Positions 22,400-37,890 of a stretch of 42,869 nucleotides of DNA are shown piece after piece. The position numbers and the translations under genes are program-made. Numbering within the stretch: the first letter of the stretch is position 1; each line of letters starts with the position of its first letter. Below the pieces are notes generated by a model. It was not told the origin of the DNA, ran no database searches, and was given only the letters and a program-made list of their open reading frames with translations. This DNA is from a virus. The stretch is from IMG/VR virus record IMGVR_UViG_3300045988_027679, positions 1 to 42,869 of that record; one strand, given 5' to 3'.

Positions 22400-22445
22400 A
22401 ATCTGAATGTTTTTTATTGTTTATTACTCTTGTTTCTTTTGTCTG

Positions 22446-23442: not shown

Positions 23443-23467
23443 AATCTTTATTGGAATTTAATTATAT

Positions 23468-25105: not shown

Positions 25106-25109
25106 GATT

Positions 25110-25286: not shown

Positions 25287-25297
25287 AAGCCCTGCCT

Positions 25298-26239: not shown

Positions 26240-26252
26240 TGTCTGAATGTTT

Positions 26253-26561: not shown

Positions 26562-26573
26562 GCTTATAAAGTT

Positions 26574-26738: not shown

Positions 26739-26839
26739 ATTACTGAATGTTTAAAAGTTGCCACGGCTTCCCTTTGTCTCGATGTGACCCCACCCCATAG
26801 GTTGCACCGTGGCGGTTCGGGATATTATAATAAAATGGC

Positions 26840-27700: not shown

Positions 27701-27745
27701 AATTCGTTCTTTTTACTGTTCAACTTATTGTTCATTAAACTATAG

Positions 27746-27822
27746 TGGAAGGCTGGGGATTCGAACCCCAGTTGACTGCCAAAACTTACCCCCCCTTGCC
27801 AGCTGCCGAGGGATGCCCTTCC
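27746..27822 (-). ncRNA. tRNA-like element: canonical T-arm and acceptor stem, no canonical D or anticodon arm
   Basis: The minus-sense sequence is GGAAGGG...UGGGG-UUCGAAU-CCCCA-GCCUUCC-A. It has a perfect T-stem/loop and 6 of 7 acceptor pairs. The intervening 45 nt do not fold into a cloverleaf in my hands. Confidence 0.4.
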
Positions 27823-27827
27823 GTTGT

Positions 27828-27922
27828 AGGGCGCACGCTGTCAAATTTCCGCATATCTTGAATAAACACTAACCGTTCCAACTTGTATGATTCTTTGCGT
27901 GCGCCCTGCCCACCGCTGTGGG
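27828..27922 (-). other. Structured noncoding segment upstream of the tRNA-like element
   Basis: An 11-bp perfect GC-rich inverted repeat, AGGGCGCACGC (27828-27838) and GCGTGCGCCCT (27897-27907), has a 58-nt spacer. A second hairpin CCCAC-CGCT-GTGGG lies at 27909-27922. Confidence 0.6.
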
Positions 27923-27966
27923 GATTTTAGTTTCAAATAACCGTTATAACTATTCATCTATGGAGC

Positions 27967-28311
27967 CTAATAAACAAGTTGATCCATAAGAATGTCGAGC
28001 CTGCTTTCGTTAAAAGCGTCCATCTGGTCTTGGTCTGCGTACTGGCTGTTCCCCTCCAACCAGTCGTCCATCACGTCTTGATAGTTAACGCAGCCCTCGA
28101 TGGCTTCCTCAAGACGCTCGCTTTCGTTGTTGCTATTCTTGTGCGTCACGACAGCTACGTTCCCGGTTCTGTCGCACCATACGCAGATGTCGCCTGCCTT
28201 GGTCTTGATGTCTATCCGTGCAACCGCTGGTTGCTGTGGTTCACGGTCTATCTCCAGCCAGATGGCATCGTACATCTTCTTCCTGCACTCTTCGATAATA
28301 TTCGGTCTCAT
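27967..28311 (-). CDS. Hypothetical early protein
   Basis: 114-aa ORF with a 4-nt overlap to the upstream gene. Confidence 0.7.
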   Translation of the reverse strand: MRPNIIEECRKKMYDAIWLEIDREPQQPAVARIDIKTKAGDICVWCDRTGNVAVVTHKNSNNESERLEEAIEGCVNYQDVMDDWLEGNSQYADQDQMDAFNESRLDILMDQLVY

Positions 28312-28685
28312 TTGTTGCCTCCTTCCTTTGGGAACAAATCATCAATATACAACCAGCTTTCTATTCCGTAATGATCGTCAAAGTTACGCAAATGCTCTAC
28401 AACAAAACCAGAGTTGAACAAAGAAAGATTACCATTAATCTTAACAAGTACTCTTTTGCCAAGTTTTGGTTCTTCATCAGCAGAATGCCACAAGTCCTTT
28501 AAAAACTCATTAATAGCCCACTTAGCACCATCCTTAAACAACTCTGCGCCAAACTCTTGGCAGAAATGATGCTGACCATCAGCCTCTGTATCTTCATTAT
28601 AAGACATTATAGGTAAGTCTTGCTCATACAAGTCTGCTGCTCCTTGTGCAGCTTCTTCTATTTTCTTTTCGTCAATCATGTTCAT
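28308..28685 (-). CDS. Hypothetical early protein (C-terminal DUF551-like pattern)
   Basis: I placed the start at MNMIDEKK, an ATGA overlap with the upstream stop. LWHSADEEPKLGKRVLVKING resembles the DUF551 W..ee.P..g..VLv motif, from memory. Confidence 0.6.
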   Translation of the reverse strand: MNMIDEKKIEEAAQGAADLYEQDLPIMSYNEDTEADGQHHFCQEFGAELFKDGAKWAINEFLKDLWHSADEEPKLGKRVLVKINGNLSLFNSGFVVEHLRNFDDHYGIESWLYIDDLFPKEGGNK

Positions 28686-28918
28686 CCTTTGTTTAAATAG
28701 TTGAAGAATGTCAGACGTGCGTCCGCAAGCGTCTGCTTGTTGAACTCGCTCATCGGGAGCACCGGTATTCCGTCCAGAGACAAACAAAGCATGTTGTCGA
28801 ACTCCCTAACCTGGATGCGTCTTTCAGCTTCCTTCATAGTTGCCAGTCGCTTGCTGTCCTTTCGCTCCTGCTCCCACTTGGCGGTAAGCTGCTTCGCTTT
28901 TTCGTAGGCATTCATCAT
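28682..28918 (-). CDS. Hypothetical early protein
   Basis: 78-aa ORF with coupled overlaps on both sides. Confidence 0.65.
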   Translation of the reverse strand: MMNAYEKAKQLTAKWEQERKDSKRLATMKEAERRIQVREFDNMLCLSLDGIPVLPMSEFNKQTLADARLTFFNYLNKG

Positions 28919-29112
28919 AGGGCAATCCTCCAGACTTTTTTAATCTCGCTGCCCTCGAAAACCTTGCGGTTGTCGATTCTGCGGAACTTGACCTTAATCT
29001 TTCCAGCCTGCAACCATCTGCGCAGGGTGTTGCGATGGATGCCCAGTACCTTGCAGGTCTCTGTCATTGTGTATCTGCCTGCATCAGCTACCTTTGGTTC
29101 TTCGTTCGTCAT
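28915..29112 (-). CDS. Excisionase-family/MerR-type HTH protein
   Basis: YTMTETCKVLGIHRNTLRRWLQAGKIKVKF is the classic excisionase-type winged-helix pattern; 65 aa. Confidence 0.7.
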   Translation of the reverse strand: MTNEEPKVADAGRYTMTETCKVLGIHRNTLRRWLQAGKIKVKFRRIDNRKVFEGSEIKKVWRIAL

Positions 29113-29113
29113 A

Positions 29114-29206
29114 CTAAGCCCTCCAAAAGATTAAAGTTAGTAACATGGTGACAAATACCAGGGATAACACTTCGTCACTTGTGATAATCTCGATAAACTT
29201 CTTCAT
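29114..29206 (-). CDS. Small membrane peptide (30 aa; internal ATG of track ORF 29114..29323)
   Basis: MKKFIEIITSDEVLSLVFVTMLLTLIFWRA has one transmembrane segment. Its ATG is preceded by TTTAAACATTCAG at a 5-nt distance. The longer track ORF overlaps the Cro-like gene. Confidence 0.45.
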   Translation of the reverse strand: MKKFIEIITSDEVLSLVFVTMLLTLIFWRA

Positions 29207-29238
29207 ACGCTCTGAATGTTTAAATTGGTTCGACTTGA

Positions 29239-29481
29239 TTACTTGCGCACGGCTGCACGTCTCTTCTTTGGTGTAATCACTCCAGCCTTGATAAGACATA
29301 CACGCACGTTCTGCTGGGTGCAACCAACATGCTGCGACACTGCGAGCATTATTCTGCTGTCCGATGTCTCGGCAGGTGCCTTTGCTCGGAAATCTGCAAA
29401 CATCGCTATGATGTTTTTCTTTCGTTCGTCCTGCTGCTTCTGCAACGGTGTTCGAAAATCGTAATTGAAATTTTCTCCCAT
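29239..29481 (-). CDS. Cro-like HTH regulator, first gene of the leftward lytic operon
   Basis: 80 aa, divergent from the repressor gene, with an HTH-like segment IMLAVSQHVGCTQQNVRVCLIKAG and a basic tail. Confidence 0.6.
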   Translation of the reverse strand: MGENFNYDFRTPLQKQQDERKKNIIAMFADFRAKAPAETSDSRIMLAVSQHVGCTQQNVRVCLIKAGVITPKKRRAAVRK

Positions 29482-29486
29482 TTTTA

Positions 29487-29517
29487 TTTGTATTTTAAAT
29501 TATTTTCTTTATCTTTG
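29487..29517 (+). promoter_or_regulatory. Rightward (lysogenic) promoter
   Basis: -33 TTTG at 29487-29490 and -7 TAtcTTTG at 29510-29517, with 19 nt between them. Confidence 0.6.
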
Positions 29518-29553
29518 CAAATGAGTTTTTAAACTCGTTCTGTAATTCGGTTG

Positions 29554-29585
29554 CAAAAATACAATAAAATATTTATATCCACAAA
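29554..29585 (-). promoter_or_regulatory. Leftward (lytic) promoter
   Basis: On the minus strand, -33 TTTG lies at 29585-29582 and -7 TAttTTTG at 29561-29554, with 20 nt between them. Confidence 0.6.
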
Positions 29586-29593
29586 CATTTGTG
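29580..29593. promoter_or_regulatory. Palindromic operator candidate
   Basis: CACAAA-CA-TTTGTG is a perfect 6-bp inverted repeat overlapping the -33 element of the leftward promoter. Confidence 0.45.
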
Positions 29594-29643
29594 TTTATAT
29601 TTATAAATTGTTTACTTTAGTTTTAATTTATTTAGAATTAACT

Positions 29644-30000
29644 ATGACTGGTGAAGAAATGAAAACATATTTGAGGCAGAGAGGGTTATCTCTTGCTTCT
29701 GTTGCTGAAGAACTGGGCACAAGCCCACAAAATCTGAATGGCAAGTTAAAGGCTAAAAGTCTGAAATCGGACTTTATATCTGCAATAAAGGCAATCATCG
29801 ACAGATGCGCCCCTCCCCTACCAGCCGAGATGGAAGAGGCTGTCATGGGATCAAATATCAATGGCTCGAACAGTTCCAACGTTTCCCAGTCAATAGGTAG
29901 TGATGCTGCCTTGGCTGCTGAAAACAAGCTGCTGCGAGAACAGAATGAGTTCCTGCAAAGTCAAGTAAAAACGTTGCTTGCCATTGTCGGGAAGAGATAA
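29644..30000 (+). CDS. CI-like repressor (XRE-type HTH)
   Basis: HTH segment LSLASVAEELGTSPQNLNGKLK and a C-terminal zipper-like helix LLREQNEFLQSQVKTLLAIV. I chose the ATG at 29644 because the track start 29551 lies in the AT-rich promoter region. Confidence 0.7.
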   Translation: MTGEEMKTYLRQRGLSLASVAEELGTSPQNLNGKLKAKSLKSDFISAIKAIIDRCAPPLPAEMEEAVMGSNINGSNSSNVSQSIGSDAALAAENKLLREQNEFLQSQVKTLLAIVGKR

Positions 30001-30024
30001 CAAAATAACTCAATTATAATTAAT

Positions 30025-30471
30025 ATGAAAGATGAGGATTTCATTGAGCGGAAGGAGAAGGTTCTTCTTGCCGCCCTCGGGAAAAGCTGGCTATGGAAAG
30101 CCAGCAGGTTGATAATAGGTATCATCCCTCCAGTGGGTGCGCTTGTAATGCTGATTCACTGTTCCCTGCTCTCGTTCGGCTATCGTGTAAAGCTCACGGA
30201 GTGGATATTCGACTGCTCGCTGTTCGGGTTCATCGCCTGGATCATCGTCAGCCTAGCCTATGGCTTCTGCTGGGTGCATCGAGCGTTCGCTACCTACGGA
30301 GTGCTGATCTCCTTCTGCATCGACTTCCAGCGTTCCTTCGGGTTCGGTGTCTTGCGCCATCCGCTGCACCTGCTGATGGTCGCCCTAGGGCTGCTGCTCT
30401 TCTTCGTCTTCATCAAGAAAAAGGCTTGGAATGAGTTCTACGATAGAAATATTAATCATTTAAACAATTAG
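30025..30471 (+). CDS. Polytopic inner-membrane protein (lysogen-expressed cargo)
   Basis: 148 aa with about 4 hydrophobic helices (LIIGIIPPVGALVMLIHCSLL, CSLFGFIAWIIVSLAYGFCWV, GVLISFCIDF, LLMVALGLLLFFVFI), in an operon with the repressor. Confidence 0.7.
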   Translation: MKDEDFIERKEKVLLAALGKSWLWKASRLIIGIIPPVGALVMLIHCSLLSFGYRVKLTEWIFDCSLFGFIAWIIVSLAYGFCWVHRAFATYGVLISFCIDFQRSFGFGVLRHPLHLLMVALGLLLFFVFIKKKAWNEFYDRNINHLNN

Positions 30472-30476
30472 GCTAT

Positions 30477-30995
30477 ATGAAAAAGATAATAATTTTATTC
30501 GTGCTTGCGCTTGCGTGCGTGGGTGTGCGTGCGCAAACACTTCTTTCAAGGAGTTTCGAGCTATCACCATCGGTTAGCTATACTGTGTTTGAACCTAAAA
30601 AAGATACCGTTTATTATTGCAGGATAGTACGTGTTGTCACTACAAAAGTTACGGATAGCTTCTATCTAAAATTTGACGGATGGAACAAACTTGTTGGTGC
30701 GTTGAATTTTATGCTGTCGCTTGAGGGACAGGAAAAAGGGAGAAAATACCAAATCGGCTCTTCATTGAACAAGAATACCGTAACGACTGGAAAGCAGGAT
30801 GGGTTTCTCTTTATACCTTCGGAAGAAGGACTGACTATCTCCAACGGTGACGAGGTTCCTAGTCAATTCGCCTTTTATAGTTATTCTGATATAGCTTACA
30901 TCCTCAAAGGTTTAAATATCGAAGCTAGGTTGAAAAAGCAAAAGAAACGTGATGCTCGGAACAGTAGCGATATAGACGATGCCTACAAATATTGA
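30477..30995 (+). CDS. Secreted/periplasmic protein with a signal peptide (lysogen-expressed cargo)
   Basis: The N-terminus MKKIIILFVLALACVGVRAQ looks like a signal peptide; 172 aa. Confidence 0.7.
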   Translation: MKKIIILFVLALACVGVRAQTLLSRSFELSPSVSYTVFEPKKDTVYYCRIVRVVTTKVTDSFYLKFDGWNKLVGALNFMLSLEGQEKGRKYQIGSSLNKNTVTTGKQDGFLFIPSEEGLTISNGDEVPSQFAFYSYSDIAYILKGLNIEARLKKQKKRDARNSSDIDDAYKY

Positions 30996-31170
30996 TTACC
31001 TTCTCACCTACGAGGAATACCTGCCAGTGCTCACCCCTTCCGAGGTGGATGGACTGCTGGCTTCTCGCCCCTCGCTGGCTCAGTTGCAGGACTGGTCACA
31101 AAGATTGAATAACCATCGGGCAAGGCTGGATAGCGTTTTCAGTCGTGCCTACAAAAAGTTAAATGAATAA
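30979..31170 (+). CDS. Small hypothetical protein
   Basis: 63-aa ORF overlapping both neighbours (17 nt and 8 nt). Confidence 0.5.
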   Translation: MPTNIDYLLTYEEYLPVLTPSEVDGLLASRPSLAQLQDWSQRLNNHRARLDSVFSRAYKKLNE

Positions 31171-31507
31171 TATGGAAGATAAAAATCTGATGTCCGCTGA
31201 TGTGGATATAGCCGTGCGCTTCTTTGATGCCCTCGACCGATTGAAGGCTGACGGCTGCATAGGCGGTCTTAAGGCGATAACGGACCGGTACGGTCTCAAC
31301 CGCTGGAACGCCATATCCCTTCGAGACAAGCCTGCCGAGTGCTACGGTCGCTTCCGTCCGTCCTGGGTTCAGTTCCTGGTCCGTGATTACCATGTCAACC
31401 CATACTGGCTGCTCCTTGGAGAAGGTGATTTCTATTCGGCTGGTTTCAATGCTGAAATAGTAAAAAAACTGCAAGCCGCCTGCAAAAGCAAGAAGAAGCC
31501 TGCGTAA
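31163..31507 (+). CDS. HTH-type DNA-binding protein
   Basis: The segment VNPYWLLLGEGDFY resembles the end of XRE-type HTH domains common in Bacteroidota regulators; 114 aa with a basic tail. Confidence 0.5.
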   Translation: MNNMEDKNLMSADVDIAVRFFDALDRLKADGCIGGLKAITDRYGLNRWNAISLRDKPAECYGRFRPSWVQFLVRDYHVNPYWLLLGEGDFYSAGFNAEIVKKLQAACKSKKKPA

Positions 31508-31542
31508 CTTTCATATTCTCAACTCGTTGCAAATACTTCTTG

Positions 31543-31550
31543 TATTTTTG
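31543..31550 (+). promoter_or_regulatory. Possible -7 box TAttTTTG upstream of the integrase
   Basis: It sits inside the hairpin GCAAATAC-TTCTT-GTATTTTTGC, about 145 nt upstream of the int ATG. There is no clear -33 element. Confidence 0.3.
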
Positions 31551-31695
31551 CCATAAATTGAGGATATTTAATACTTTCGCCCTTTCCCTGCTGGGCTTGG
31601 GCTAGTTAATAACCAATCGCAGCCGCTTGGAAGATTGCACTATCTTGCTGCATTCTGCTCCTTGCGGCTGCATATAAACTGCATATAAACTGAAT

Positions 31696-32865
31696 ATGGC
31701 TACACTAAGGTTATATCTTGATACTCGCTCCAAGCGTGCCGATGGTACGTCTGCGATTAGGCTCGCCGTAAACAACCACGGCAAAACCGCATACATCTCC
31801 CTAGGGCAATACGTGAGGGCTGATGAATGGGATAAGCGTCTGTGTCGTGTGCGCAAGCGTTCCGATAAGGATGCACTCAACGACTTCCTGCTGGACCGTC
31901 AGAACTTCTACAACCGAATCTTGATGCAGGTGCAAAGCAAGCAGACCTATCGTGGCAATATGACCGCCATCGCACTTCGTGATTTGCTCCTGCGTGAGGC
32001 TGACCCAAACGCAGGCATTATAACCCTGCGAGAAATGTTCCAGCGGTATACCTCAAAGGAAATGCGACAAAGCACCAAAAACAACTATCTTGCCACTTGG
32101 CGGACCATCGAGCAATTCGATAAGGCTGCTTCCTCGCTCACTTTGGAAGATATTAACCGTGATTGGGTCGAGCGGTACAATCTGTATCTGCTAGGTCTTG
32201 GACGCTCCCACAATACCCGAACGGTGCGAATACGTCATATTGCAGCCGTCTTTAATTACGCAATAGATAACGAGCTAACGAATAACTTTCCTTTCCGCAG
32301 GCTCAATCTATCGCTGGATAGCACTCGGAACAGAGATTTGTCGGTCGAGGAGATACGAGATATTTTCACGGCTGATGTTCCGGAACGTAGAAGATGTCTG
32401 CTGGACGCATTCAAGGCGATGTTTTTCTTGATCGGTATAAATCTACACGATATGTACGACCTCACGCCTGCCAACGTCATAGATGGGCGCATTGAGTACG
32501 TAAGACTAAAGACTGGGAAAAGGTACTCCATACTTATCCAGCCCGAACTACTGGAGATAATGAAGAAGTACCAAGGTACTCGCCATCTGTTTTCATTCTG
32601 CGAGAAGTATAAGAATGCTAATTCGTTCAGCATCTCAATGAACAATGCGCTGCGTTCCCTGCGTGATGGTCTTACGACCTATTACGGACGGCATACGTGG
32701 GCAACACTCGCCTTCAACCTTGGAATACCAAAGGACGTGGTGTCGCTTGCGCTGGGTCACTCGTTCGGTGTCCGGGTAACTGATACATACATCAATGCAG
32801 ACCTATCGAGAGTAGATGAAGCAAACCGCAGGGTTATTGATTACGTGCTATACAACAAGAAATAG
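31696..32865 (+). CDS. int: Tyrosine recombinase / phage integrase
   Basis: The N-terminus MATLRLYLDTRSKRADGTSAIRLAV fits the Bacteroidota Arm-type DNA-binding pattern. The C-terminus carries GRHTWATLA (HxxR), LGHS and TDTYI (catalytic Tyr region). Confidence 0.85.
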   Translation: MATLRLYLDTRSKRADGTSAIRLAVNNHGKTAYISLGQYVRADEWDKRLCRVRKRSDKDALNDFLLDRQNFYNRILMQVQSKQTYRGNMTAIALRDLLLREADPNAGIITLREMFQRYTSKEMRQSTKNNYLATWRTIEQFDKAASSLTLEDINRDWVERYNLYLLGLGRSHNTRTVRIRHIAAVFNYAIDNELTNNFPFRRLNLSLDSTRNRDLSVEEIRDIFTADVPERRRCLLDAFKAMFFLIGINLHDMYDLTPANVIDGRIEYVRLKTGKRYSILIQPELLEIMKKYQGTRHLFSFCEKYKNANSFSISMNNALRSLRDGLTTYYGRHTWATLAFNLGIPKDVVSLALGHSFGVRVTDTYINADLSRVDEANRRVIDYVLYNKK

Positions 32866-32984
32866 CCCTTATTTCTTGCGAATTTGCCGCAGAAACGGCT
32901 CAAATTGTTTTCGGGGATAGTTTTACGTGCTTACCACGTAAGCGGCTCAGAACGCAAATTTCTGGGCAAATCGAAAAAAGAGTA

Positions 32985-33059
32985 CAAAAAAATACCCCAG
33001 CGGTGAAAAAGTCGAGCCGCTGGGGTAATAAGTGGAGACCACTTTAAACATTCAGTGAT
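32985..33059 (-). ncRNA. Candidate ~75-nt sRNA (own promoter, 5' seed, intrinsic terminator)
   Basis: The predicted RNA is AUCACUGAAUGUUUAAAGUGGUCUCCACUUAUUACCCCAGCGGCUCGACUUUUUCACCGGCUGGGGUAUUUUUUU. It starts just downstream of a consensus promoter and ends at a GC-rich hairpin plus U-run. Confidence 0.45.
32994..33025 (-). terminator. Intrinsic terminator ending the accessory operon / the sRNA
   Basis: The minus-sense sequence CCCCAGC-GG...CC-G-GCUGGGG forms 7 + 2 bp with one bulge, followed by UAUUUUUUUG. Confidence 0.7.
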
Positions 33060-33060
33060 G

Positions 33061-33092
33061 CAAAGGTACGCTTTTCCTTTGAAACCACCAAA
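33061..33092 (-). promoter_or_regulatory. Consensus Bacteroides-type promoter immediately after the RHH gene stop
   Basis: On the minus strand, -33 TTTG lies at 33092-33089 and -7 TAccTTTG at 33068-33061, with 20 nt between them. Confidence 0.5.
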
Positions 33093-33248
33093 TTATTTAC
33101 CGAAAAATTTCTTTCTCAACAAATCATTGATGAATCGTGACTTGTTGGGTAATGCGTTGAGGAAAGGCAGCAGGTCGTTGTCTATCTGTATGCCTACGAG
33201 GGTAACCGTCTTGCCTGCCCCCTTCTTGGTACTCTTAATCTTTGCCAT
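33093..33248 (-). CDS. Ribbon-helix-helix (CopG/Arc-like) DNA-binding protein, 51 aa, not in the ORF track
   Basis: My own translation gives MAKIKSTKKGAGKTVTLVGIQIDNDLLPFLNALPNKSRFINDLLRKKFFGK. It shows a beta-strand then two helices, and the ATG lies 3 nt after the upstream stop. Confidence 0.6.
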   Translation of the reverse strand: MAKIKSTKKGAGKTVTLVGIQIDNDLLPFLNALPNKSRFINDLLRKKFFGK

Positions 33249-33251
33249 ACA

Positions 33252-33527
33252 TCAATCCTCCTCTGAATAATCGAGAATGACCGCATCGCCAGCGATATAA
33301 TCACCCTGCAAGCACCCTCTTTGTTGCAAACAAACAGTTGCCGCAATATTGCGCTTCATCTGCATCGCCTTGCCATCCTCATTGATATACATCGCCTTTC
33401 CGTTCTGCAGGTCTATGCGCTCGATAAAACCGCTCACGAATCCTTGAAGTTCCTCCAAGGTAAATTTGCCACCGCTGGCAGGCTTAACGGTCATCTGCTC
33501 GCCAGTCGCTCTAATAAGTGTTGCCAT
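33252..33527 (-). CDS. DUF3846-like protein
   Basis: IRATGEQMTVKP...TLEELQGFVSGFIERIDLQNGKAMYINEDGK matches my memory of the DUF3846 pattern, which is common in phage/plasmid early regions. Confidence 0.55.
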   Translation of the reverse strand: MATLIRATGEQMTVKPASGGKFTLEELQGFVSGFIERIDLQNGKAMYINEDGKAMQMKRNIAATVCLQQRGCLQGDYIAGDAVILDYSEED

Positions 33528-33733
33528 AATCTAATAATTATATTATTGTTTAATACTCTTTCTTTGAAGGATTCATAATCCTCTTCTGTGTAAATAGTAA
33601 CGGTGTCACCATTAAAAGGTGCATCAAGCTTTATAACTGTCCCATTTTGGCTTTCTCGGAAAAACAAAATGTGTTCTTTGTTTACTAGAATCTCACGATA
33701 TGCGTTAGATTTCACTTTGATAAACTTTGCCAT
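33491..33733 (-). CDS. Hypothetical small protein
   Basis: 80-aa AT-rich ORF with a 37-nt overlap to the downstream gene. Confidence 0.55.
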   Translation of the reverse strand: MAKFIKVKSNAYREILVNKEHILFFRESQNGTVIKLDAPFNGDTVTIYTEEDYESFKERVLNNNIIIRLWQHLLERLASR

Positions 33734-33737
33734 ATTC

Positions 33738-34202
33738 TTAATGTCTGTCTTTTTTCCATTGTCTATCCAACTTGGTTTTCATTCTGTTCATCTTGTGTTC
33801 CAGCTTGCCAATCTGCTTATAAGATAACCACTCCGGCTTGATGTTCAGCGACATCCAGTACTGGCGCATTTCCTTGCAGTGTCGGGCGATGCTTTGGAAA
33901 TAGAGGTGTCGCTCGTATGGGTTGCGAAGGAAGTACTCGCAATCGGATAGCATACGATTAAGCATCATGTATTTATGCTTTTGCCCTTCTCCGAGACTTA
34001 CAAGCCTTCCGTTGTCCCCGATCCACAGCATTGCGCCCTCTCCCTTCCATTCAAAGTTGAAAGCCTTGCTTACTGGATAATAATAGCCATTGAGCACCGT
34101 GCCTTCCTTGAGGTCTCGCCCAATCTCTCGCAGGCAGGTTCTTCCCCAGCTGGTCGTTACCTCGACCACTGCTTGTGCTGGTATCTTGTCGTATTCCTTC
34201 AT
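33738..34202 (-). CDS. Hypothetical protein
   Basis: 154-aa ORF. The segment YMMLNRMLSDCEYFLRNPYERHLYF resembles small domains seen in polyvalent/anti-restriction-associated proteins, a low-confidence recollection. Confidence 0.65.
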   Translation of the reverse strand: MKEYDKIPAQAVVEVTTSWGRTCLREIGRDLKEGTVLNGYYYPVSKAFNFEWKGEGAMLWIGDNGRLVSLGEGQKHKYMMLNRMLSDCEYFLRNPYERHLYFQSIARHCKEMRQYWMSLNIKPEWLSYKQIGKLEHKMNRMKTKLDRQWKKDRH

Positions 34203-34238
34203 ATCTTGATATATTGTGCAGGGCTTGCGCCCTGCTGG

Positions 34239-34469
34239 TTAATACTTTTCAATCCAATACTCTGTTGCCATCTTGCCAGCCATGGTAAACTCCTCAATCT
34301 TGAAGTATCCCATTCTTCTGTCTGTGATGTTCTCGCTTCCCTTTTCGAGTCTGTTGAAGAATCGCTCTGTATAAGCTTTTCTTGTAGAGCTGAAAACTTC
34401 TCTAATCTCTTCTTTCTCGGTGTCTCTCCAAGTTGTCTGTTCCTTAATGTAATACTTTGCTCTTGCCAT
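34239..34469 (-). CDS. Hypothetical small protein
   Basis: 76-aa ORF preceded by AGGAGG at a 7-nt spacing. Confidence 0.6.
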   Translation of the reverse strand: MARAKYYIKEQTTWRDTEKEEIREVFSSTRKAYTERFFNRLEKGSENITDRRMGYFKIEEFTMAGKMATEYWIEKY

Positions 34470-34480
34470 TGTCTTGCCTC

Positions 34481-34615
34481 CTATCTTTGAATTATAAATT
34501 GAATACCTGCCCAGTCTGAAATGTTGTTGCTCTGCTGCAATCTCTTATTCTCCATATCGATCAATATTGCTTCTGTCTCGGATATCTGTTTTCCGTTTAC
34601 AAAATACTTCTTCAT
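34481..34615 (-). CDS. Small hypothetical protein (44 aa), not in the ORF track
   Basis: My own translation gives MKKYFVNGKQISETEAILIDMENKRLQQSNNISDWAGIQFIIQR. It fills the gap between neighbouring genes. Confidence 0.4.
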   Translation of the reverse strand: MKKYFVNGKQISETEAILIDMENKRLQQSNNISDWAGIQFIIQR

Positions 34616-34633
34616 AGCTTTACCCTCCCTTGA

Positions 34634-34882
34634 TTACTTAGCATACAATGTTACAACCAATCCTCTTCTGAGTGCGCAGCGGCAAGCGTCCAGACCAGCT
34701 TTCAAAGCTCGCTTGATGAACTTGTTGAAAAGTTCCGCTCCGATGAGCTTCAAAATTCCGCTTACTCCTACGAGTGTGTTTATCTTCTTGCCATCCTCTG
34801 TGCGTCCGAATACCTTGATGCGGAAGTTTGAGTTGATGAACTTTGTTGTGAACTCTAAAACGTTTGAATTTGACTTTTTCAT
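34634..34882 (-). CDS. Hypothetical small protein, first gene of the accessory operon
   Basis: 82-aa basic ORF. Confidence 0.6.
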   Translation of the reverse strand: MKKSNSNVLEFTTKFINSNFRIKVFGRTEDGKKINTLVGVSGILKLIGAELFNKFIKRALKAGLDACRCALRRGLVVTLYAK

Positions 34883-34956
34883 TTTTCTTTGGCTTAACCG
34901 TGCTGCCTAGGGCTTAGTTACTGAATGTTTCAAGTGCTTATCTTCTAAACACGATG

Positions 34957-34988
34957 CAAAGATATTAATATTTTTCGGTTCCACCAAA
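34957..34988 (-). promoter_or_regulatory. Consensus Bacteroides-type promoter of the accessory operon
   Basis: On the minus strand, -33 TTTG lies at 34988-34985 and -7 TAtcTTTG at 34964-34957, with 20 nt between them and about 70 nt of leader to the ATG at 34882. Confidence 0.6.
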
Positions 34989-35048
34989 ACTTTTCCCGAA
35001 AGATATTAATATTTTAACTTTTATTTGCTGTTTATGTCGTAAGCACGT

Positions 35049-35193
35049 CTGTTTTCGGTACATTTTCGGTCGTTTTCGGTCGTTTTCGGTACGTTTTCGG
35101 TCGTTTTCGGTACGTTTTCGGTCGTTTTCGGTACGTTTTCGGTACGTTTTCGGTCGTTTTCGGTACGTTTTCGGTCGTTTTCGGTACGTTTTC
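35049..35193. repeat. Array of 13 perfect TTTTCGGT iterons (plus one partial) with alternating 10/11-nt spacing
   Basis: Copies start at 35052, 35063, 35073, 35083, 35094, 35104, 35115, 35125, 35136, 35147, 35157, 35168 and 35178. Twelve intervals sum to 126 nt, a mean of 10.5 nt. Confidence 0.95.
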
Positions 35194-35295
35194 TACGCTC
35201 TATATGATAATAACCTGCACGCATTAGTTTGAATGAATATATAATCTAACTCTCATATCCCATACCCCTTTTCTCTCAATGAAAAGTGTTCTTCC

Positions 35296-35339
35296 ACAAA
35301 AAATAGGGCAGGAAAACGCTCTCCTGCGCTCCCTGCCCT
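35296..35339 (-). terminator. Intrinsic terminator after the lysis cassette
   Basis: The minus-sense sequence AGGGCAGG-(19 nt)-CCUGCCCU is followed by AUUUUUUGUGG, 28 nt after the spanin stop. Confidence 0.6.
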
Positions 35340-35366
35340 TTCTAACAAATGATATTATGATTGAAC

Positions 35367-35888
35367 CTATTGAACTCTCTTCTTGATGCGCTCCTTTATC
35401 CAGTTAACCGCAAGAAGGAACAGAAACAGAATCACGCAATCGCCAATGAATAATCTTATCTTGTGCCATGTGCTCGCTGGCTTCTCTACCTCCTTGGTCT
35501 TGTATCGGTTCACGTAACACTTTACCTTTACGGTGTCGGTCACGAATTTGTAAATGTCGCCCACGATGGTGTCCGTCTTGGTCGATGTCTTCCATCTGGT
35601 GGTCGTAAGATTATGCCACCGCTCCTTGATTACGGTGTCGCCCTTGATATAGACAAGCACGCTGTCCTGCCTGAATACGCTGTCGTGCTGCTGGGTGTCC
35701 TGCCAGTGGATCTGTCGCTGGTTCACGCTGTCACGTCTTGCACTGGTGTGTGCGCTGTCGTGATAAACCGTGTTATTTTGCGCTGTTTTGGCGCAGGAAC
35801 AGCCCAAAAACAAAAGTGGGGTAATTATAAGCATGGCGAAAAATAACGCCACAGAACGCAAATTTCGCCCTTTTCTTGAATTTTCCAT
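35367..35888 (-). CDS. Unimolecular spanin (u-spanin) candidate
   Basis: It has an N-terminal lipoprotein signal with a lipobox (LLFLGC at about residue 30) and a single C-terminal transmembrane helix (LFIGDCVILFLFLLAVNWI) with a basic tail. It is the last gene of the lysis cassette. Confidence 0.5.
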   Translation of the reverse strand: MENSRKGRNLRSVALFFAMLIITPLLFLGCSCAKTAQNNTVYHDSAHTSARRDSVNQRQIHWQDTQQHDSVFRQDSVLVYIKGDTVIKERWHNLTTTRWKTSTKTDTIVGDIYKFVTDTVKVKCYVNRYKTKEVEKPASTWHKIRLFIGDCVILFLFLLAVNWIKERIKKRVQ

Positions 35889-35917
35889 ACTTTATAAACG
35901 CTAGATTGATATGTTTA

Positions 35918-36454
35918 TTATGCAAGCACCTTGATTTCCAAGGCTTCCTTGGCTCGCTTCAAATACTTCTCGCAGGCTGTCAGTCCATTGTACCCTCCGT
36001 TTATCTTCCTACGGATAGCCTTCAAGTTGTCTTGGTCTGCCAGCTCATTGCAGCCGAAAGTGTCGAATACCCACATTGAGGATTTCGTTGCACCCAGAGG
36101 ACGCTCCAGCAGTTCGGGTGTCCCAACAACATCGAAGCCGCAATAATTGGCATACTTTCTGTAGTTGGCTCTTCCAGTTATATGCATAAGACCTCTGCCC
36201 TTATACTTCACGCCATCGCCCTGCTGGGTGTTGCCAAGGTCTTTCCTGCCCTCGTAGGCTCTGCCGCTTGCCAGTTCCCTGGTGTATCTCAACTCTCCGC
36301 TTTCGTGGGCAATCTGTGCGAGGTAGTGCGCCATCCTTAGTGCGGTGTTGATGTGGAAATGCTCTGCCCATCCGTTGATGATTGGAAGATAGGTGTCTGC
36401 CCTGCTGCCTGCATTCGGCATTACCTTTAAAAGTTGCGCTCTAGTTATTCTCAT
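35918..36454 (-). CDS. Endolysin, glycoside hydrolase family 19 (chitinase-like lysozyme)
   Basis: AHYLAQIAHESGELRYTRE...YEGRKDLGNTQQGDGVKYKGRGLMHITGRANY is the GH19/phage lysozyme signature. Confidence 0.85.
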   Translation of the reverse strand: MRITRAQLLKVMPNAGSRADTYLPIINGWAEHFHINTALRMAHYLAQIAHESGELRYTRELASGRAYEGRKDLGNTQQGDGVKYKGRGLMHITGRANYRKYANYCGFDVVGTPELLERPLGATKSSMWVFDTFGCNELADQDNLKAIRRKINGGYNGLTACEKYLKRAKEALEIKVLA

Positions 36455-36896
36455 TATCTCCTCCTTTCTTCCGCTCTTCTTTCATTATCTCGACAAACGC
36501 CTTCGCAATTTCGTCCTTGTTCTCAAGTATTACCTGCATTGTGCGGTCTTGCTTGCGTATCTCAGCCTTCTCGTATGCCTTCTCCCGGATGCTCTTAAAC
36601 TCGCACAAAAGCAGATACACCGTCCATGCTATAGCGAACATAGGGAAGGGAGAGATAATACACGTAGCCACGTCCATAAGCGAAGCAATACCGAATGTCG
36701 GGAAATACTTCTTCGCCTTGTCGCATGTCTTCTTCAACCCGGTTGAAGTTCTTGCAACATGCAGTTCCTTCGCCTTCTGTATGCCTGCTATCAGGTCAAT
36801 TGTCATCGCTATCAGAATTGTAGCGAAACAGATAAAAATTACTAGGGCGCACAGATATAGGTGGTGCACCTGAAAATCGTGAAATACTTCGCTCAT
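36441..36896 (-). CDS. Holin
   Basis: It has three hydrophobic segments (LYLCALVIFICFATILIAMTIDLIAG, FPTFGIASLMDVATCII, FPMFAIAWTVYLLLC) and a charged C-tail. It overlaps the endolysin start by 14 nt. Confidence 0.7.
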   Translation of the reverse strand: MSEVFHDFQVHHLYLCALVIFICFATILIAMTIDLIAGIQKAKELHVARTSTGLKKTCDKAKKYFPTFGIASLMDVATCIISPFPMFAIAWTVYLLLCEFKSIREKAYEKAEIRKQDRTMQVILENKDEIAKAFVEIMKEERKKGGDNENN

Positions 36897-36916
36897 ATCA
36901 ATTTATTTTTTTTGGT

Positions 36917-37408
36917 TTATTCCAATTTTTCCCAGTCAATGGTCACACCCTTTCCGATGATGTCTGCCGTCCACCTGCAGAATGCCATACCCTCGTATCC
37001 GTCTGGATCGCTGGCTACGGCAATAGCATACTGTACGCAGTCGCTCTCGGTCTTGATTACCTTCGGGTAGAAGTCCGCATAAGCCATATTTGCCAAATAG
37101 AGAATATCCCCGATGGTCGTGCCCTTGGAGATTATCTCGTTGTTTGTTGCCAGGCGGATTTCGTCAACCGTCCATCGGTGGCTCGTTCCGTCCACGTTCT
37201 TCATCTGCTCGCTCGCCTTGATGGCTAGCTGCTTCGTGAAGTGGTAGCCGTGCTTGGCAACGTAGGCTGCATATCCGCTGGCTCCCATCAGTGCCTTTGC
37301 TGCCTTCTCGTATGGCAAGCCGTGGATGATGCCGCTCTCGCTCTCTTGGTGCTGGTGTTGCTCTTCCTCGCTATCGCAGGAATGGCGCAAAACGATGATT
37401 TTCTTCAT
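36917..37408 (-). CDS. Hypothetical protein upstream of the holin
   Basis: 163-aa ORF. Confidence 0.7.
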   Translation of the reverse strand: MKKIIVLRHSCDSEEEQHQHQESESGIIHGLPYEKAAKALMGASGYAAYVAKHGYHFTKQLAIKASEQMKNVDGTSHRWTVDEIRLATNNEIISKGTTIGDILYLANMAYADFYPKVIKTESDCVQYAIAVASDPDGYEGMAFCRWTADIIGKGVTIDWEKLE

Positions 37409-37419
37409 TGTGCGCCCTC

Positions 37420-37890
37420 CTATCCTAGTTTGTCGAGTAATTGCTTAACCATACCACGAATGCCGCTTATATCGCCCTCAAGTGCCTTGAAACGCTTTTC
37501 GGTTTCCTGCTTCTCCTTGATGGCAGGGTTCAAAGCTGCAAGCAGTTCCTCGCCCTTGGCTTTCCGCTCCTTGCTTGGCTCGTATGCCTTGATTACCTCA
37601 TCGGCTTCATTTACCAATTTCCCGACTTCGGGCAAAAGGTCTGCCTTGTCGGTTGCCAGTACGATGTCGCCTGCAAAAGTGACTCCGAGGTGTTCGGGGA
37701 TGGTGTAGATGGTCTGCTTTCCCTCCACCTCGATCGTTACGTCTCGCATTGGCTGTCCGCTGCTGGAAATGGTTGCGATGCCAGTGTTGATGTGCGGCTG
37801 GTTGTCCACGACCTTTCCTTCCTTAACTTCCACCGTCTGCTTGTCCAGCAGATAGACCGGGTGATTTCTTTGTATATTCTTAAACTCCAT
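37420..37890 (-). CDS. Hypothetical protein
   Basis: 156-aa ORF with a C-terminal coiled-coil-like segment. Confidence 0.7.
   Translation of the reverse strand: MEFKNIQRNHPVYLLDKQTVEVKEGKVVDNQPHINTGIATISSSGQPMRDVTIEVEGKQTIYTIPEHLGVTFAGDIVLATDKADLLPEVGKLVNEADEVIKAYEPSKERKAKGEELLAALNPAIKEKQETEKRFKALEGDISGIRGMVKQLLDKLG

What the first reader, a model, noticed from the sequence alone, without database searches (positions are those of the whole stretch)
32985..33059. Candidate trans-acting sRNA whose 5' seed is the exact complement of a leader motif placed 3-5 nt upstream of four early start codons
The 10-mer CTGAATGTTT occurs five times on the plus strand: 22403-22412, 26243-26252, 26743-26752, 29212-29221 and 34921-34930. 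It occurs once in the opposite orientation (AAACATTCAG at 33046-33055). About 0.08 occurrences would be expected by chance.
In the minus-sense mRNAs the five copies read AAACAUUCAG. Four of them lie 3, 3, 4 and 5 nt upstream of the ATGs of the 327-aa gene, the YqaJ-like exonuclease, a 54-aa ORF and a 30-aa membrane peptide. The fifth lies in the leader of the accessory operon.
The sixth copy lies 6-10 nt downstream of a full consensus promoter (-33 TTTG, 20 nt, -7 TAccTTTG; 33092-33061). It lies about 20 nt upstream of a GC-rich hairpin plus U7 terminator (33025-32985). Minus-strand transcription would therefore give a ~75-nt RNA starting (A)UCACUGAAUGUUUAAAG, then a small hairpin AGUGG-UCU-CCACU and the terminator. 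This is the classic sRNA layout.
Its seed can pair with 14 nt (26738 gene), 13 nt (29206 gene), 10 nt (22399 and 26239 genes) and 16 of 17 nt (operon leader), in the first four cases occluding the translation initiation region.
I know of no described phage-encoded sRNA regulon of this kind in Bacteroidota phages. An alternative is that the motif is simply a shared translation-initiation/leader element, and that the plus-strand copy serves the plus-strand ORF 33058..33270.
Basis: partly seen in the sequence, partly recalled or inferred. Interest (0 to 1): 0.8.

Follow-up and report, generated by a model that had tools for sequence, protein, structure and literature searches.

The report
Conserved small RNA in Segatella phage
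A temperate phage of the gut bacterium Segatella (Prevotella) copri carries a highly conserved, roughly 71-nt small RNA gene whose free 5' end is the exact complement of a 10-base motif placed just before the start codons of several of the phage's own early genes, which suggests RNA-based control of phage genes in a bacterial group where almost none is known.

Summary
CTGAATGTTT occurs 5 times on the + strand and once on the - strand (0.17 expected).

The sixth copy lies at the unpaired 5' end of a compact unit on the minus strand. The unit has a Bacteroidota promoter (33092-33061), a seed (33055-33046), a small hairpin and a terminator, giving about 71 nt (33056-32986).

Three independent selectors (promoter only, RNA body, terminator only) recover the same ~95 viral contigs and S. 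copri prophages. The seed is exact in 68 of 69 terminator-selected contexts. Its diversity is about 65-fold lower than at neighbouring third codon positions.

In relatives, 291 of 296 motif copies lie 1-9 nt before an ORF start. The motif is an island of conservation in variable flanks. The seed orientation never occurs outside the sRNA. Most motif substitutions keep G.U pairing.

The rival plus-strand ORF is not conserved.

Weak points: duplex energies are modest, no seed variants exist for covariation, and there are no expression data.

Best reading (confidence about 0.6): a trans-acting, phage-encoded sRNA that represses translation of its own early genes. It works like P1 c4, CTnDOT RteR or Bacteroides GibS but is not homologous to them.

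The parts
33061..33092 (-). Promoter of the candidate sRNA (-33 TTTG, 20-nt spacer, -7 TACCTTTG); abuts the stop codon of the upstream 51-aa gene
   Evidence: Pattern scan. The same 32-nt pattern sits in front of ordinary host genes in Prevotella MAGs (L158, L160, L161). It matches the sigma-ABfr consensus (PMC7366714) and the S. copri dRNA-seq motifs (10.1101/2024.04.05.588293).
32986..33056 (-). Predicted 71-nt sRNA: ACUGAAUGUUUAAAGUGGUCUCCACUUAUUACCCCAGCGGCUCGACUUUUUCACCGCUGGGGUAUUUUUUU
   Evidence: Fold z = -5.0. The TSS is inferred: the 4 nt after the -7 box vary and invariance starts at A33056. The RNA is nearly invariant in ~95 contigs. There is no Rfam match. The internal AUG frame is not conserved.
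33046..33055 (-). Seed CUGAAUGUUU, unpaired, at positions 2-11 of the predicted RNA
   Evidence: Exact in 74/75 promoter-selected loci and 68/69 terminator-selected contexts. Diversity pi is 0.0026, against 0.17 at third codon positions of the adjacent gene. It is identical in the divergent L001 lineage.
33030..33044 (-). Small hairpin SL1 (AAGUGG-UCU-CCACUU)
   Evidence: Folds. The loop varies freely (UCU/UUA/UUC/UUU/UCA/UAU) while the stem is kept. L001 has a different hairpin at the same place.
32986..33027 (-). Intrinsic terminator: 11-bp G+C-rich stem, unusually large 13-nt loop, U7
   Evidence: The L001 lineage has a different stem sequence with the same architecture and the same loop core UCGACUUUUUC. 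Sequence diverges into unrelated groups right after the U-run.
33004..33013 (-). Terminator-loop segment GACUUUUUCA: possible second pairing site
   Evidence: Perfect 10-nt complement of UGAAAAAGUC at the start codon of the leader operon's first ORF. Only 6 of 20000 shuffled loops do as well, and it is the only one of 149 ORF starts with >=9 nt. The finding is post hoc and has no covariation.
29212..29221 (-). Target site D: AAACAUUCAG, 5 nt before the AUG of a conserved 30-aa hydrophobic peptide (29206-29114)
   Evidence: Invariant in 36 unique relatives. The ORF length and hydrophobic character are conserved. Complementarity is 13 nt.
26743..26752 (-). Target site C: 4 nt before the AUG of the 54-aa ORF (26738-26574)
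   Evidence: Complementarity is 14 nt and this is the best duplex in the window (-17.0 kcal/mol). In relatives the motif is kept in front of a different gene.
26243..26252 (-). Target site B: 3 nt before the AUG of the YqaJ/RecE-like exonuclease (26239-25298)
   Evidence: The site is mosaic: about 23 relatives have a motif-less junction.
22403..22412 (-). Target site A: 3 nt before the AUG of the 327-aa gene (22399-21416)
   Evidence: Invariant in 43 unique relatives while the flanks and the spacer vary.
34921..34930 (-). Target site E: motif in the 5' leader of the accessory operon, single-stranded, 38 nt before the AUG
   Evidence: In the consensus fold it is unpaired between a covarying 5' hairpin and a 3' stem. 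Complementarity is 16 of 17 nt. The variants in relatives are mostly G.U-compatible.
34957..34988 (-). Promoter of the leader cassette (AAAGTTTTGG ... TATCTTTG), similar to the sRNA promoter
   Evidence: It is a repeated promoter-leader cassette, 1-3 per phage, in front of different genes.
34872..34881 (-). UGAAAAAGUC at the start codon of the operon's first ORF: complement of the sRNA terminator loop
33093..34882 (-). Accessory operon (82, 44, 76, 154 [LPD11], 80, 91 [DUF3846] and 51 aa). There is no terminator before the sRNA, so its mRNA should end at the sRNA terminator and carry both target and anti-target
   Evidence: ORFs. Pfam. No strong terminator in between.
33093..33248 (-). 51-aa gene coupled to the sRNA promoter (beta-alpha-alpha, ribbon-helix-helix-like; not confirmed)
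   Evidence: 56 homolog clusters, all >=73% identical. The codon-position diversity pattern shows this strand is coding. The AF2 model has pLDDT 61, with secondary structure E-E-H-H. No Pfam or PDB hit.

Best explanation
The locus is a gene for a roughly 71-nt trans-acting small RNA of a temperate Segatella copri phage.

It is transcribed from a strong host-type promoter. It also forms the 3' end of the upstream operon's mRNA, because there is no terminator in between.

Its unpaired 5' end (ACUGAAUGUUUAAA) base-pairs with the motif AAACAUUCAG. That motif sits 3-5 nt upstream of the start codons of at least four early genes: a 30-aa hydrophobic peptide, a 54-aa protein, the RecE/YqaJ exonuclease and a 327-aa protein. 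Pairing there lies inside the ribosome footprint and would block translation initiation, possibly followed by mRNA decay.

A fifth site lies in the single-stranded part of the 5' leader of the operon that ends in the sRNA itself. There the sRNA would act as feedback, perhaps helped by a second contact between its large terminator loop and the operon's first start codon.

The likely biological role is to keep early or potentially harmful phage functions silent in the lysogen or to time them after infection, and possibly to act on incoming related phages.

Shown: the sequence architecture, the conservation and the positional statistics.
Inferred: transcription, pairing in vivo, and the direction of regulation (repression).
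For: 1. Architecture. The promoter matches the Bacteroidota consensus and is identical in pattern to host housekeeping promoters. The 5' 16 nt are unpaired, followed by SL1 and a terminator, with z = -5.

2. Conservation with unbiased sampling.
- Promoter-only selection gave 74/75 viral loci with the exact seed.
- Terminator-only selection gave 68/69.
- Seed pi is 0.0026, against 0.17 at adjacent third codon positions.
- The RNA is unchanged where the upstream protein is only 76-80% identical and the -33 region differs.
- The second lineage (L001, L168, L170) keeps the seed and the loop but has different stems.

3. Boundaries. Variation is confined to the 4 nt before the predicted TSS, the loops, and everything after the U-run.

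4. Targets.
- 291/296 copies in relatives lie 1-9 nt before an ATG that opens an ORF of at least 25 codons.
- The motif is invariant at sites A and D while the flanks vary.
- It is kept when the downstream gene is swapped.
- It is not the phage's general RBS: 4 of ~58 genes carry it, and the others use A-rich or GGAGG start regions.

5. Orientation. In more than 1.8 Mb of related sequence the seed orientation occurs only at the sRNA.

6. Substitutions. 7 of 9 distinct substitution types in targets keep a G.U or U.G pair with the seed. These occur in 22 unique contexts, against 2 for disruptive changes.

7. Accessibility. The leader site is single-stranded in the consensus fold. Sites rank in the 67th-88th percentile of accessibility.

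8. Precedent. GibS shows that a 5' single-stranded seed can repress at start regions in Shine-Dalgarno-less Bacteroidota (PMC7366714). RteR shows a constitutive element-encoded sRNA repressing its own element's operon (PMC3809561).
Against: - There is no expression evidence. The sequence is absent from the supplementary tables of the S. copri dRNA-seq study.
- Duplex energies are modest: -17.0, -15.1 and -14.7 kcal/mol, and roughly -10 kcal/mol (my nearest-neighbour estimate, not a tool result) for the two 10-bp sites, which do not reach the top 12. They are no better than for shuffled seeds.
- S. copri lacks Hfq, ProQ, CsrA and RbpB-type proteins (10.1101/2024.04.05.588293).
- No seed variants exist, so there is no seed-target covariation. 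The single seed variant (L007, U2C) is not compensated in its visible target.
- Structural covariation is weak because only two lineages exist.
- All targets carry the identical 10-mer with sharp edges. This is more uniform than typical sRNA regulons and could reflect an intrinsic function of the motif, or spread by cassette copying.
- The substitution test is only suggestive (P = 0.011 or 0.09 depending on the null).
- Site B is dispensable in about 23 relatives.
- One contig (L212) has a leader motif but no operon or sRNA, though it may be an assembly collapse.
Confidence: 0.6

Rival explanations
1. The 10-mer is primarily a protein-recognised element of the start region. It would be a translational operator or a processing site for a phage or host RNA-binding protein or RNase, in the manner of T4 RegA or RegB acting on early mRNAs. 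The small RNA is then either an anti-operator that competes with that protein or is functionally unrelated.
For: - The 10-mer is identical, with sharp edges, at every site, which is typical of protein recognition.
- Its spacing to the AUG is fixed and close.
- It marks a minority class of genes.
- Duplex energies are unremarkable.
- The host has no known RNA chaperone (10.1101/2024.04.05.588293).
- Tolerance of transitions is also compatible with some protein recognition.
Against: - An RNA-binding protein would not recognise the complement, so the conserved reverse copy at the free 5' end of a promoter-terminator unit would be an unexplained coincidence (about 0.04 expected per window, and it is conserved in ~95 contigs).
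- No candidate RNA-binding protein was identified.
- The sharp 3' edge of the motif coincides with the predicted 5' end of the sRNA, and the 5' edge with the start of SL1. Pairing alone explains both edges.
Confidence: 0.15
2. The motif copies are DNA-level features. They would be junction or linker sequences at which gene cassettes are exchanged, or sites for a DNA-binding protein such as the adjacent RHH-like protein. The inverted copy is simply one more such site.
For: - Cassette gain and loss occurs exactly at motifs. Three loci join the upstream flank of site C to the downstream flank of site B.
- Different genes follow the same motif.
- Tandem motifs occur.
- The promoter-leader cassettes are repeated and mobile.
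- L212 looks like a deletion between two cassettes.
- The sRNA lies at a mosaic boundary.
Against: - 10 bp is too short to drive homologous exchange.
- A DNA site has no reason to sit 1-9 nt before start codons in 291/296 cases, or to be strictly strand-specific relative to transcription.
- The sites are not at promoters (except the sRNA copy) and are not palindromic or paired as RHH operators usually are.
- The G.U-compatible substitution pattern is an RNA-pairing signature.
Confidence: 0.1
3. There is no separate sRNA. The hairpin plus U-run is just the terminator and 3' UTR of the RHH operon (and a barrier against the convergent integrase gene). The promoter match is fortuitous. The reverse motif is a relic, for example of a former plus-strand gene start (ORF 33058-33270).
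For: - The unit directly follows the last gene of an operon and faces the integrase gene.
- The plus-strand copy is followed by ATG 2 nt later in the window.
- There are no expression data.
Against: - The plus-strand ATG is lost in L001 (TGGTAC) and in the CAGCAC, CAACAC and CACGCAC variants.
- That ORF is antisense to a conserved coding gene.
- A relic would not be ~65-fold less diverse than synonymous sites, nor survive replacement of both hairpins.
- The promoter is conserved and matches experimentally derived host motifs.
- Even without its own promoter, a 3'-UTR-derived sRNA with the same seed would result.
Confidence: 0.07

Closest known systems
c4 antisense RNA of phages P1/P7 (and the related CI RNA of satellite phage P4)
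   Same: A ~70-77-nt phage-encoded RNA acts in trans on the phage's own mRNA (review table in PMC12197685). From my own knowledge: c4 uses two short separated complementary segments, one covering a ribosome-binding site, and is made from the same transcript that carries its targets. Here the operon mRNA likewise carries a target in its leader and the sRNA at its 3' end. A second loop/start-codon complementarity is also possible.
   Different: There is no sequence or structure homology (no Rfam hit). The targets here are at least four dispersed start regions plus a leader, not one antirepressor operon. The seed is a free 5' end rather than hairpin loops. The RNA has its own promoter. The host phylum is different.
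[quoted passage not shown]
   Same: It is a mobile-element-encoded ~90-nt sRNA in Bacteroidota. It has an independent constitutive promoter, lies next to the excision/integration module, and represses the element's own operon (PMC3809561).
   Different: RteR is thought to cause premature termination within tra, and its pairing site is undefined. It has no repeated operator-like motif, and it is on an ICE, not a phage. Sequence similarity was not tested.
GibS of Bacteroides thetaiotaomicron
   Same: It is a trans-encoded Bacteroidota sRNA whose conserved, single-stranded 5' portion pairs with translation initiation regions lacking Shine-Dalgarno sequences and represses them (PMC7366714).
   Different: GibS is chromosomal, metabolic and longer, with an extended 30-50-nt seed region and imperfect, target-specific pairings. 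Here a 10-nt core is identical at all sites.
P22 sar RNA
   Same: It is a small phage RNA that blocks translation initiation of a phage gene (ant) by pairing at its start region (PMC12197685).
   Different: From my own knowledge, sar is a cis-encoded, fully complementary antisense transcript of one gene (the review's table labels it 'trans'). It is not a trans-acting RNA with a multi-gene regulon.
Type I toxin-antitoxin pairs with trans-encoded antitoxin RNAs (TisB/IstR-1, ZorO/OrzO, ShoB/OhsC; from my own knowledge)
   Same: One target is a conserved 30-aa hydrophobic peptide whose start region pairs with the sRNA over 13 nt.
   Different: The RNA gene is 3.8 kb away rather than adjacent. Toxicity is unknown. 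The RNA has several other targets.
3'-UTR sRNAs with their own promoter (DapZ or MicL type; from my own knowledge)
   Same: The sRNA shares its terminator with the upstream mRNA, and its promoter lies at the end of the last coding sequence.
   Different: Those are chromosomal and Hfq-dependent in Enterobacteria. They are not self-targeting.
T4 RegA/RegB control of early mRNAs (PMC3014915, listed but not read; details from my own knowledge)
   Same: A short shared sequence at the start regions of many early phage genes serves as a handle for post-transcriptional shut-off.
   Different: In T4 the effector is a protein. Here a complementary RNA is the obvious candidate effector.

Membership tests
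Trans-encoded base-pairing sRNA (generic class) | Independent small transcription unit: own promoter and intrinsic terminator, non-coding | tested here: met
   Consensus promoter. Terminator and fold z = -5. The internal AUG frame is broken by A-run length variants. This is sequence-level evidence only. Transcription itself was not observed.
Trans-encoded base-pairing sRNA (generic class) | Conserved, structurally accessible seed | tested here: met
   The 5' 16 nt are unpaired. The seed is exact in 74/75 and 68/69 unbiased samples. Seed pi is 0.0026.
Trans-encoded base-pairing sRNA (generic class) | Complementarity to unlinked mRNAs at functionally sensible positions | tested here: met
   10-16 nt at 3-5 nt before four AUGs and in one leader. 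In relatives, 291/296 copies lie 1-9 nt before ORF starts.
Trans-encoded base-pairing sRNA (generic class) | Seed-target covariation or compensatory change | tested here: inconclusive
   No alternative seeds exist in any collection. Target variants are mostly G.U-compatible (7/9 types, P 0.011-0.09). The single seed variant is not compensated.
Trans-encoded base-pairing sRNA (generic class) | Measured effect on target translation or stability | not testable with these tools
   Needs reporter fusions, toeprinting and RNA-seq of a deletion mutant.
C4 antisense RNA family (P1/P7 c4, P4 CI) | Sequence/structure homology to the curated family model | tested here: not met
   No Rfam match at gathering threshold in the whole window. 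At E<=1 there were only chance hits at about 20 bits to unrelated families.
C4 antisense RNA family (P1/P7 c4, P4 CI) | RNA produced from the same transcript that carries its target sites | tested here: inconclusive
   There is no terminator between the operon and the sRNA, so read-through is expected. The sRNA also has its own promoter. Processing was not tested.
C4 antisense RNA family (P1/P7 c4, P4 CI) | Two separate short complementary segments, one covering the start region | tested here: inconclusive
   Seed/motif pairing plus a terminator-loop/start-codon 10-mer (P about 3e-4 by shuffling). This was found post hoc, and U-run length variants are not compensated.
Type I toxin-antitoxin | Small hydrophobic peptide whose mRNA start region pairs with an antitoxin RNA | tested here: met
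   The 30-aa ORF is conserved in length and hydrophobicity. A 13-nt complementarity ends 5 nt before its AUG.
Type I toxin-antitoxin | Toxin and antitoxin genes adjacent or overlapping; peptide toxic when expressed | tested here: not met
   The genes are 3.8 kb apart (29206 vs 33056). Toxicity is not testable here.
Ribbon-helix-helix protein (the 51-aa neighbour) | beta-alpha-alpha fold with a family or structure match | tested here: inconclusive
   The secondary structure of the AF2 model is E-E-H-H but pLDDT is 61. There is no Pfam, PHROG or PDB sequence match.

The most novel reading that the evidence does not exclude
This sRNA may be an RNA repressor that defines a phage regulon through an identical 10-nt 'RNA operator' placed at the start codons of early genes. 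It would also feed back on its own operon through two contacts: 5' seed to leader motif, and terminator loop to start codon. Expressed constitutively from one end of the prophage in a host with no known RNA chaperone, it would form an RNA-based layer of lysogeny maintenance and superinfection immunity in Bacteroidota phages. That would be a functional analogue of P1 c4 / P4 CI immunity that arose independently, and the first phage sRNA regulon described in this phylum.
Probability: 0.25. Interest if true: 0.85.

Novelty: new variant of a known kind. Interest (0 to 1): 0.65.

Why it matters
- Segatella copri is one of the most abundant and health-associated human gut bacteria, yet it is genetically hard to work with. 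Its RNA biology has barely been opened: there is one dRNA-seq study and no known RNA chaperones.
- A 2025 review's table of phage-derived sRNAs lists only phages of Proteobacteria, Staphylococcus and cyanobacteria (PMC12197685).
- This phage group is common. About 95 viral contigs carry the sRNA, 225 carry the related exonuclease, and the prophage is found in cultured S. copri strains.
- If the RNA works as proposed, it gives a compact, experimentally tractable case of chaperone-independent sRNA regulation in Bacteroidota. The parts are a 71-nt RNA, a 10-nt operator and four or five targets.
- It would be a new example of RNA-based control of lysogeny.
- It could also serve as a portable repression module (operator plus sRNA) for synthetic control of translation in organisms that do not use Shine-Dalgarno sequences.

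Tried and rejected
1. GenBank phage collection: no relatives.

2. Seed-target covariation. I searched via the integrase, the RHH family, a metagenome scan that excluded the dominant type and three viral scans. Only two sRNA lineages exist, and both have the same seed.

3. Structural covariation. MAFFT/RNAalifold found 1 compensatory pair, because L001 cannot be aligned in register. I rely instead on separate folds.

4. Hybridisation energy as a discriminator. The proposed sites are not better than those of shuffled seeds.

5. A suspected second motif family (CATAAAAATAAAAGA) turned out to be an ordinary A-rich junction in mosaic variants.

6. attP between int and the sRNA was rejected. S. copri chromosomal copies keep the sRNA-int arrangement, and contig ends map upstream of int.

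7. The test of 'relatives with motifs but no sRNA'. Contigs lacking the sRNA are truncated at mosaic junctions or at the repeated leader. L212 is ambiguous. Two large contigs (037651, 3300029391_000005) were not resolved.

8. One viral scan was wasted on a wrong gap length.

9. RHH assignment. The model confidence was too low to justify a fold search, and there was no PDB sequence hit.

10. One look-up failed for lack of a slot.

11. The S. copri dRNA-seq supplements do not contain the sequence.

12. Loop/start-codon covariation: none.
Full report

The 10-mer CTGAATGTTT occurs five times on the plus strand (22403, 26243, 26743, 29212, 34921) and once on the minus strand (33046-33055). Dinucleotide shuffles predict 0.17, and no shuffle reached six.

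Read as minus-sense RNA, four copies (AAACAUUCAG) end 3, 3, 4 and 5 nt before the ATGs of the 327-aa gene, the YqaJ/RecE-type exonuclease, a 54-aa ORF and a 30-aa ORF. The fifth lies in a 5' leader, 38 nt before an ATG.

The sixth copy, in the opposite orientation, follows a Bacteroidota-type promoter (TTTG-N20-TACCTTTG, 33092-33061) by 5 nt. After it come a 6-bp hairpin and an 11-bp G+C-rich hairpin with U7. The 81-nt stretch folds with the first 16 nt unpaired (MFE -27.3 kcal/mol, z = -5.0).

**Context**

The window is a temperate phage of Segatella (Prevotella) copri. The same module is present in the S. copri HDE04 chromosome and in strain HF1825.

The 389-aa gene convergent with the candidate is a tyrosine integrase. 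Prophage-form contigs end at the position equivalent to window 31510-31695, so attP lies upstream of int. In a lysogen the candidate sits about 1.3 kb inside one prophage end.

Upstream on the same strand is an operon of small genes (LPD11 and DUF3846 domains among them). Its last gene is a 51-aa protein with a beta-alpha-alpha prediction (low confidence), and it stops exactly where the candidate's promoter begins. No terminator intervenes. The operon mRNA should therefore end at the candidate's terminator and carry both the leader motif and its complement.

**Is it a gene? Conservation with unbiased sampling**

- A pattern built only from the promoter found 75 viral loci. What follows the promoter is nearly invariant from the predicted start to the U-run, and 74 of 75 have the exact seed. 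Variation is concentrated in the SL1 loop, and sequences split into unrelated groups immediately after the U-run.
- A pattern built only from the terminator recovered the same contigs. 68 of 69 distinct contexts have the exact seed. A body pattern gave the same set.
- Nucleotide diversity in the seed is 0.0026. It is 0.17 at third codon positions and 0.039 at first and second positions of the adjacent gene (that script's locus choice required the seed, so the unbiased figures are the two above).
- Where the 51-aa protein has diverged to 76-80% identity and the -33 region differs, the RNA is unchanged.
- A second lineage (L001, L168, L170) has the same promoter, seed and terminator-loop core. 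Its SL1 and terminator stem have different sequences and fold equivalently.
- The 4 nt after the -7 box vary, and invariance begins at the fifth nt (A33056). The leader promoter behaves the same way: invariance begins at the first base of its 5' hairpin. This places the predicted 5' end one base before the seed and gives a 71-nt RNA.
- The same 32-nt promoter pattern precedes ordinary host genes in Prevotella MAGs. It agrees with the published sigma-ABfr consensus (PMC7366714) and with the S. copri dRNA-seq motifs (10.1101/2024.04.05.588293).
- The AUG inside the seed does not open a conserved frame.
- Rfam has no match.

**Are the motifs functional?**

- In 80 relatives anchored on the exonuclease, every locus has 2-6 copies in the target orientation. 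The seed orientation appears only at the sRNA.
- Of 296 exact copies, 291 lie 1-9 nt before an ATG that opens an ORF of at least 25 codons. The other five are leader-type.
- At sites A and D the motif columns are invariant in 43 and 36 unique sequences, while the upstream flank and the spacer to the ATG vary.
- The motif persists when the downstream gene is replaced, and it can be tandem.
- It is not the phage's general ribosome-binding sequence. Only 4 of about 58 minus-strand genes carry it. The others have A-rich or GGAGG start regions.
- In the leader the motif lies in a single-stranded stretch between a 7-bp 5' hairpin and a 3-bp stem, both with covariation. The sites are moderately accessible.
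- The substitutions seen in positionally homologous sites are mostly A-to-G or C-to-U. These keep a G.U pair with the seed: 7 of 9 distinct types, in 22 unique contexts against 2 for disruptive ones. P is 0.011 or 0.09 depending on the null.
- The 30-aa ORF behind site D is a real gene for a small hydrophobic peptide.

**What weakens the case**

- No transcript has been observed. The sequence is not in the supplements of the S. copri transcriptome study.
- The seed is A/U-rich. Duplexes are -17.0, -15.1 and -14.7 kcal/mol for sites C, D and the leader. The two 10-bp sites A and B are weaker, about -10 kcal/mol by my own nearest-neighbour estimate. Shuffled seeds find equally good partners in the window. 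S. copri has no known RNA chaperone.
- No lineage with a different seed exists in any collection searched, so covariation cannot be tested. The one seed variant (L007) is not compensated.
- Formal structural covariation is weak.
- The motif is more uniform than sRNA regulons usually are. I think the predicted 5' end of the RNA and the start of SL1 explain its sharp edges, but an intrinsic function of the motif cannot be excluded.
- Site B is replaced by a motif-less junction in about 23 relatives.
- Contigs with motifs but no detectable sRNA proved to be truncated at mosaic junctions or at the repeated leader cassette. One contig (L212) lacks the operon and the sRNA through a join between two leader copies. 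That could be a real deletion or an assembly collapse.

The rival (the plus-strand copy serves ORF 33058-33270) is rejected. The ATG is absent in L001 and in several window-type variants. The ORF is also antisense to a gene whose codon-position pattern and 56 homolog clusters show it is the coding strand.

**A new lead, found post hoc**

The terminator loop is unusually large (13 nt), and its core is conserved in both lineages. GACUUUUUCA (33013-33004) is a perfect complement of UGAAAAAGUC at the start codon of the first ORF of the leader operon (34881-34872). Six of 20000 shuffled loops do as well, and no other of 149 ORF starts reaches 9 nt.

This would explain how a site 38 nt upstream could be coupled to translational control, and it recalls the two-segment pairing of P1 c4. 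However, U-run length variants in the loop are not matched by changes in the target, so I treat it as a hypothesis.

**Mechanism and comparison**

The most likely reading is a trans-acting repressor RNA acting on the phage's own early genes. It would occlude start regions and feed back on the operon that contains it. Confidence is about 0.6.

It works like P1/P7 c4, P22 sar (PMC12197685), CTnDOT RteR (PMC3809561) and B. thetaiotaomicron GibS (PMC7366714). It is not a member of any curated family. The 30-aa peptide target gives it a type I antitoxin flavour, but the genes are not adjacent.

I rate it a new variant of a known kind: a phage-encoded sRNA regulon defined by an identical operator-like 10-mer, in a phylum and host where none has been described.

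Noticed in passing
window 34891-34988 (minus strand); also L001:5140-5240 and 6780-6890, L159, L170: The promoter plus leader is a repeated, portable cassette of about 150 bp, present 1-3 times per phage in front of different genes. It consists of an AAAGTTTTGG/TATCTTTG promoter, a 5' hairpin GUGUUUA-GAAGA-UAAGCAC (GGAGA loop in most relatives), the motif, and then the conserved element AAGCCCUAGGCAnCACGGUUAAGCC just before the AUG. The last element shows G-C to C-G covariation (TAGGCA..AAGCC vs TACGCA..AAGCG) and also occurs without a promoter between genes (L063, L064). Its function is unknown.
   Followed up: partly
window 29114-29206 (minus strand): There is a conserved 30-aa hydrophobic peptide (MKKFIEIITSDEVLSLVFVTMLLTLIFWRA), the second gene of the early leftward operon. 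The gene caller behind the L165 table did not call it. It looks like a type I toxin or a small membrane protein.
   Followed up: partly
window 31508-31695: This is the likely attP region. Many prophage-form contigs end about 130 nt beyond the position equivalent to 31511, between the 114-aa gene and the integrase start. The integrase allele of this window is rare: only one relative (60% identity) was found by protein patterns.
   Followed up: partly
window 29487-29585: Divergent Bacteroidota promoters lie back to back. The leftward one drives the 80-aa gene and the early operon. The rightward one faces the 148-aa and 172-aa genes. This is probably the lysis-lysogeny switch. A relative (L165) has an HTH_3 (XRE-type) 143-aa repressor at the equivalent place, whereas the window's 148-aa protein has no family match.
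   Followed up: no
L078-L147 junction before the exonuclease; L-series site B/C: There is mosaicism exactly at the motifs. Three loci join the upstream flank of site C to the exonuclease start, losing two small ORFs. About 23 loci have an unrelated A-rich junction (CATAAAAATAAAAGAcaATG) instead of the motif.
   Followed up: partly
L212 (IMGVR_UViG_3300045988_041925): The leader is joined to a two-gene moron, a terminator and the integrase. The whole accessory operon, the 51-aa gene and the sRNA are missing. This is consistent with a deletion between two leader repeats, or with an assembly artefact.
   Followed up: partly
relatives: contig ends at positions equivalent to window ~33744 and within ~60 nt of leaders: Metagenome assemblies of this phage group break systematically after the LPD11 gene, at the leader cassette, and just downstream of the sRNA terminator. 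This marks hypervariable or repeated junctions.
   Followed up: yes
window 33738-34202 and 33252-33527: The accessory operon encodes LPD11 and DUF3846 domain proteins. As I recall, these domains are typical of polyvalent or anti-defence proteins of mobile elements, which suggests early counter-defence cargo under the leader promoter.
   Followed up: no
L158, L160, L161 (Prevotella MAGs): Host housekeeping genes (one begins MAKIVTLGEIMLRLSPQGNDRF, which I take to be a KdgK-like sugar kinase; family not tested) carry the same extended promoter TTTGGTGGTTTCAA-N3-AAAA-N-CGTACCTTTG. This implies a longer conserved promoter consensus in Prevotella than the short -33/-7 boxes.
   Followed up: no
window 23964-24044: This 81-nt stretch is the only part of the 16.5-kb query (window 21000-37500) with a megablast match in GenBank phages: 91.5% to an unannotated 'Bacteriophage sp.' from human faeces (MT835597.1).
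   Followed up: no
window 32866-32985: The 120-bp spacer between the integrase stop and the sRNA terminator is recognisably conserved even in L001 (integrase 60% identical). It contains small hairpins (GCCG-N6-CGGC, ACGTG-N5-CACGT). There is no convincing plus-strand terminator for int, so int read-through would be antisense to the sRNA.
   Followed up: no
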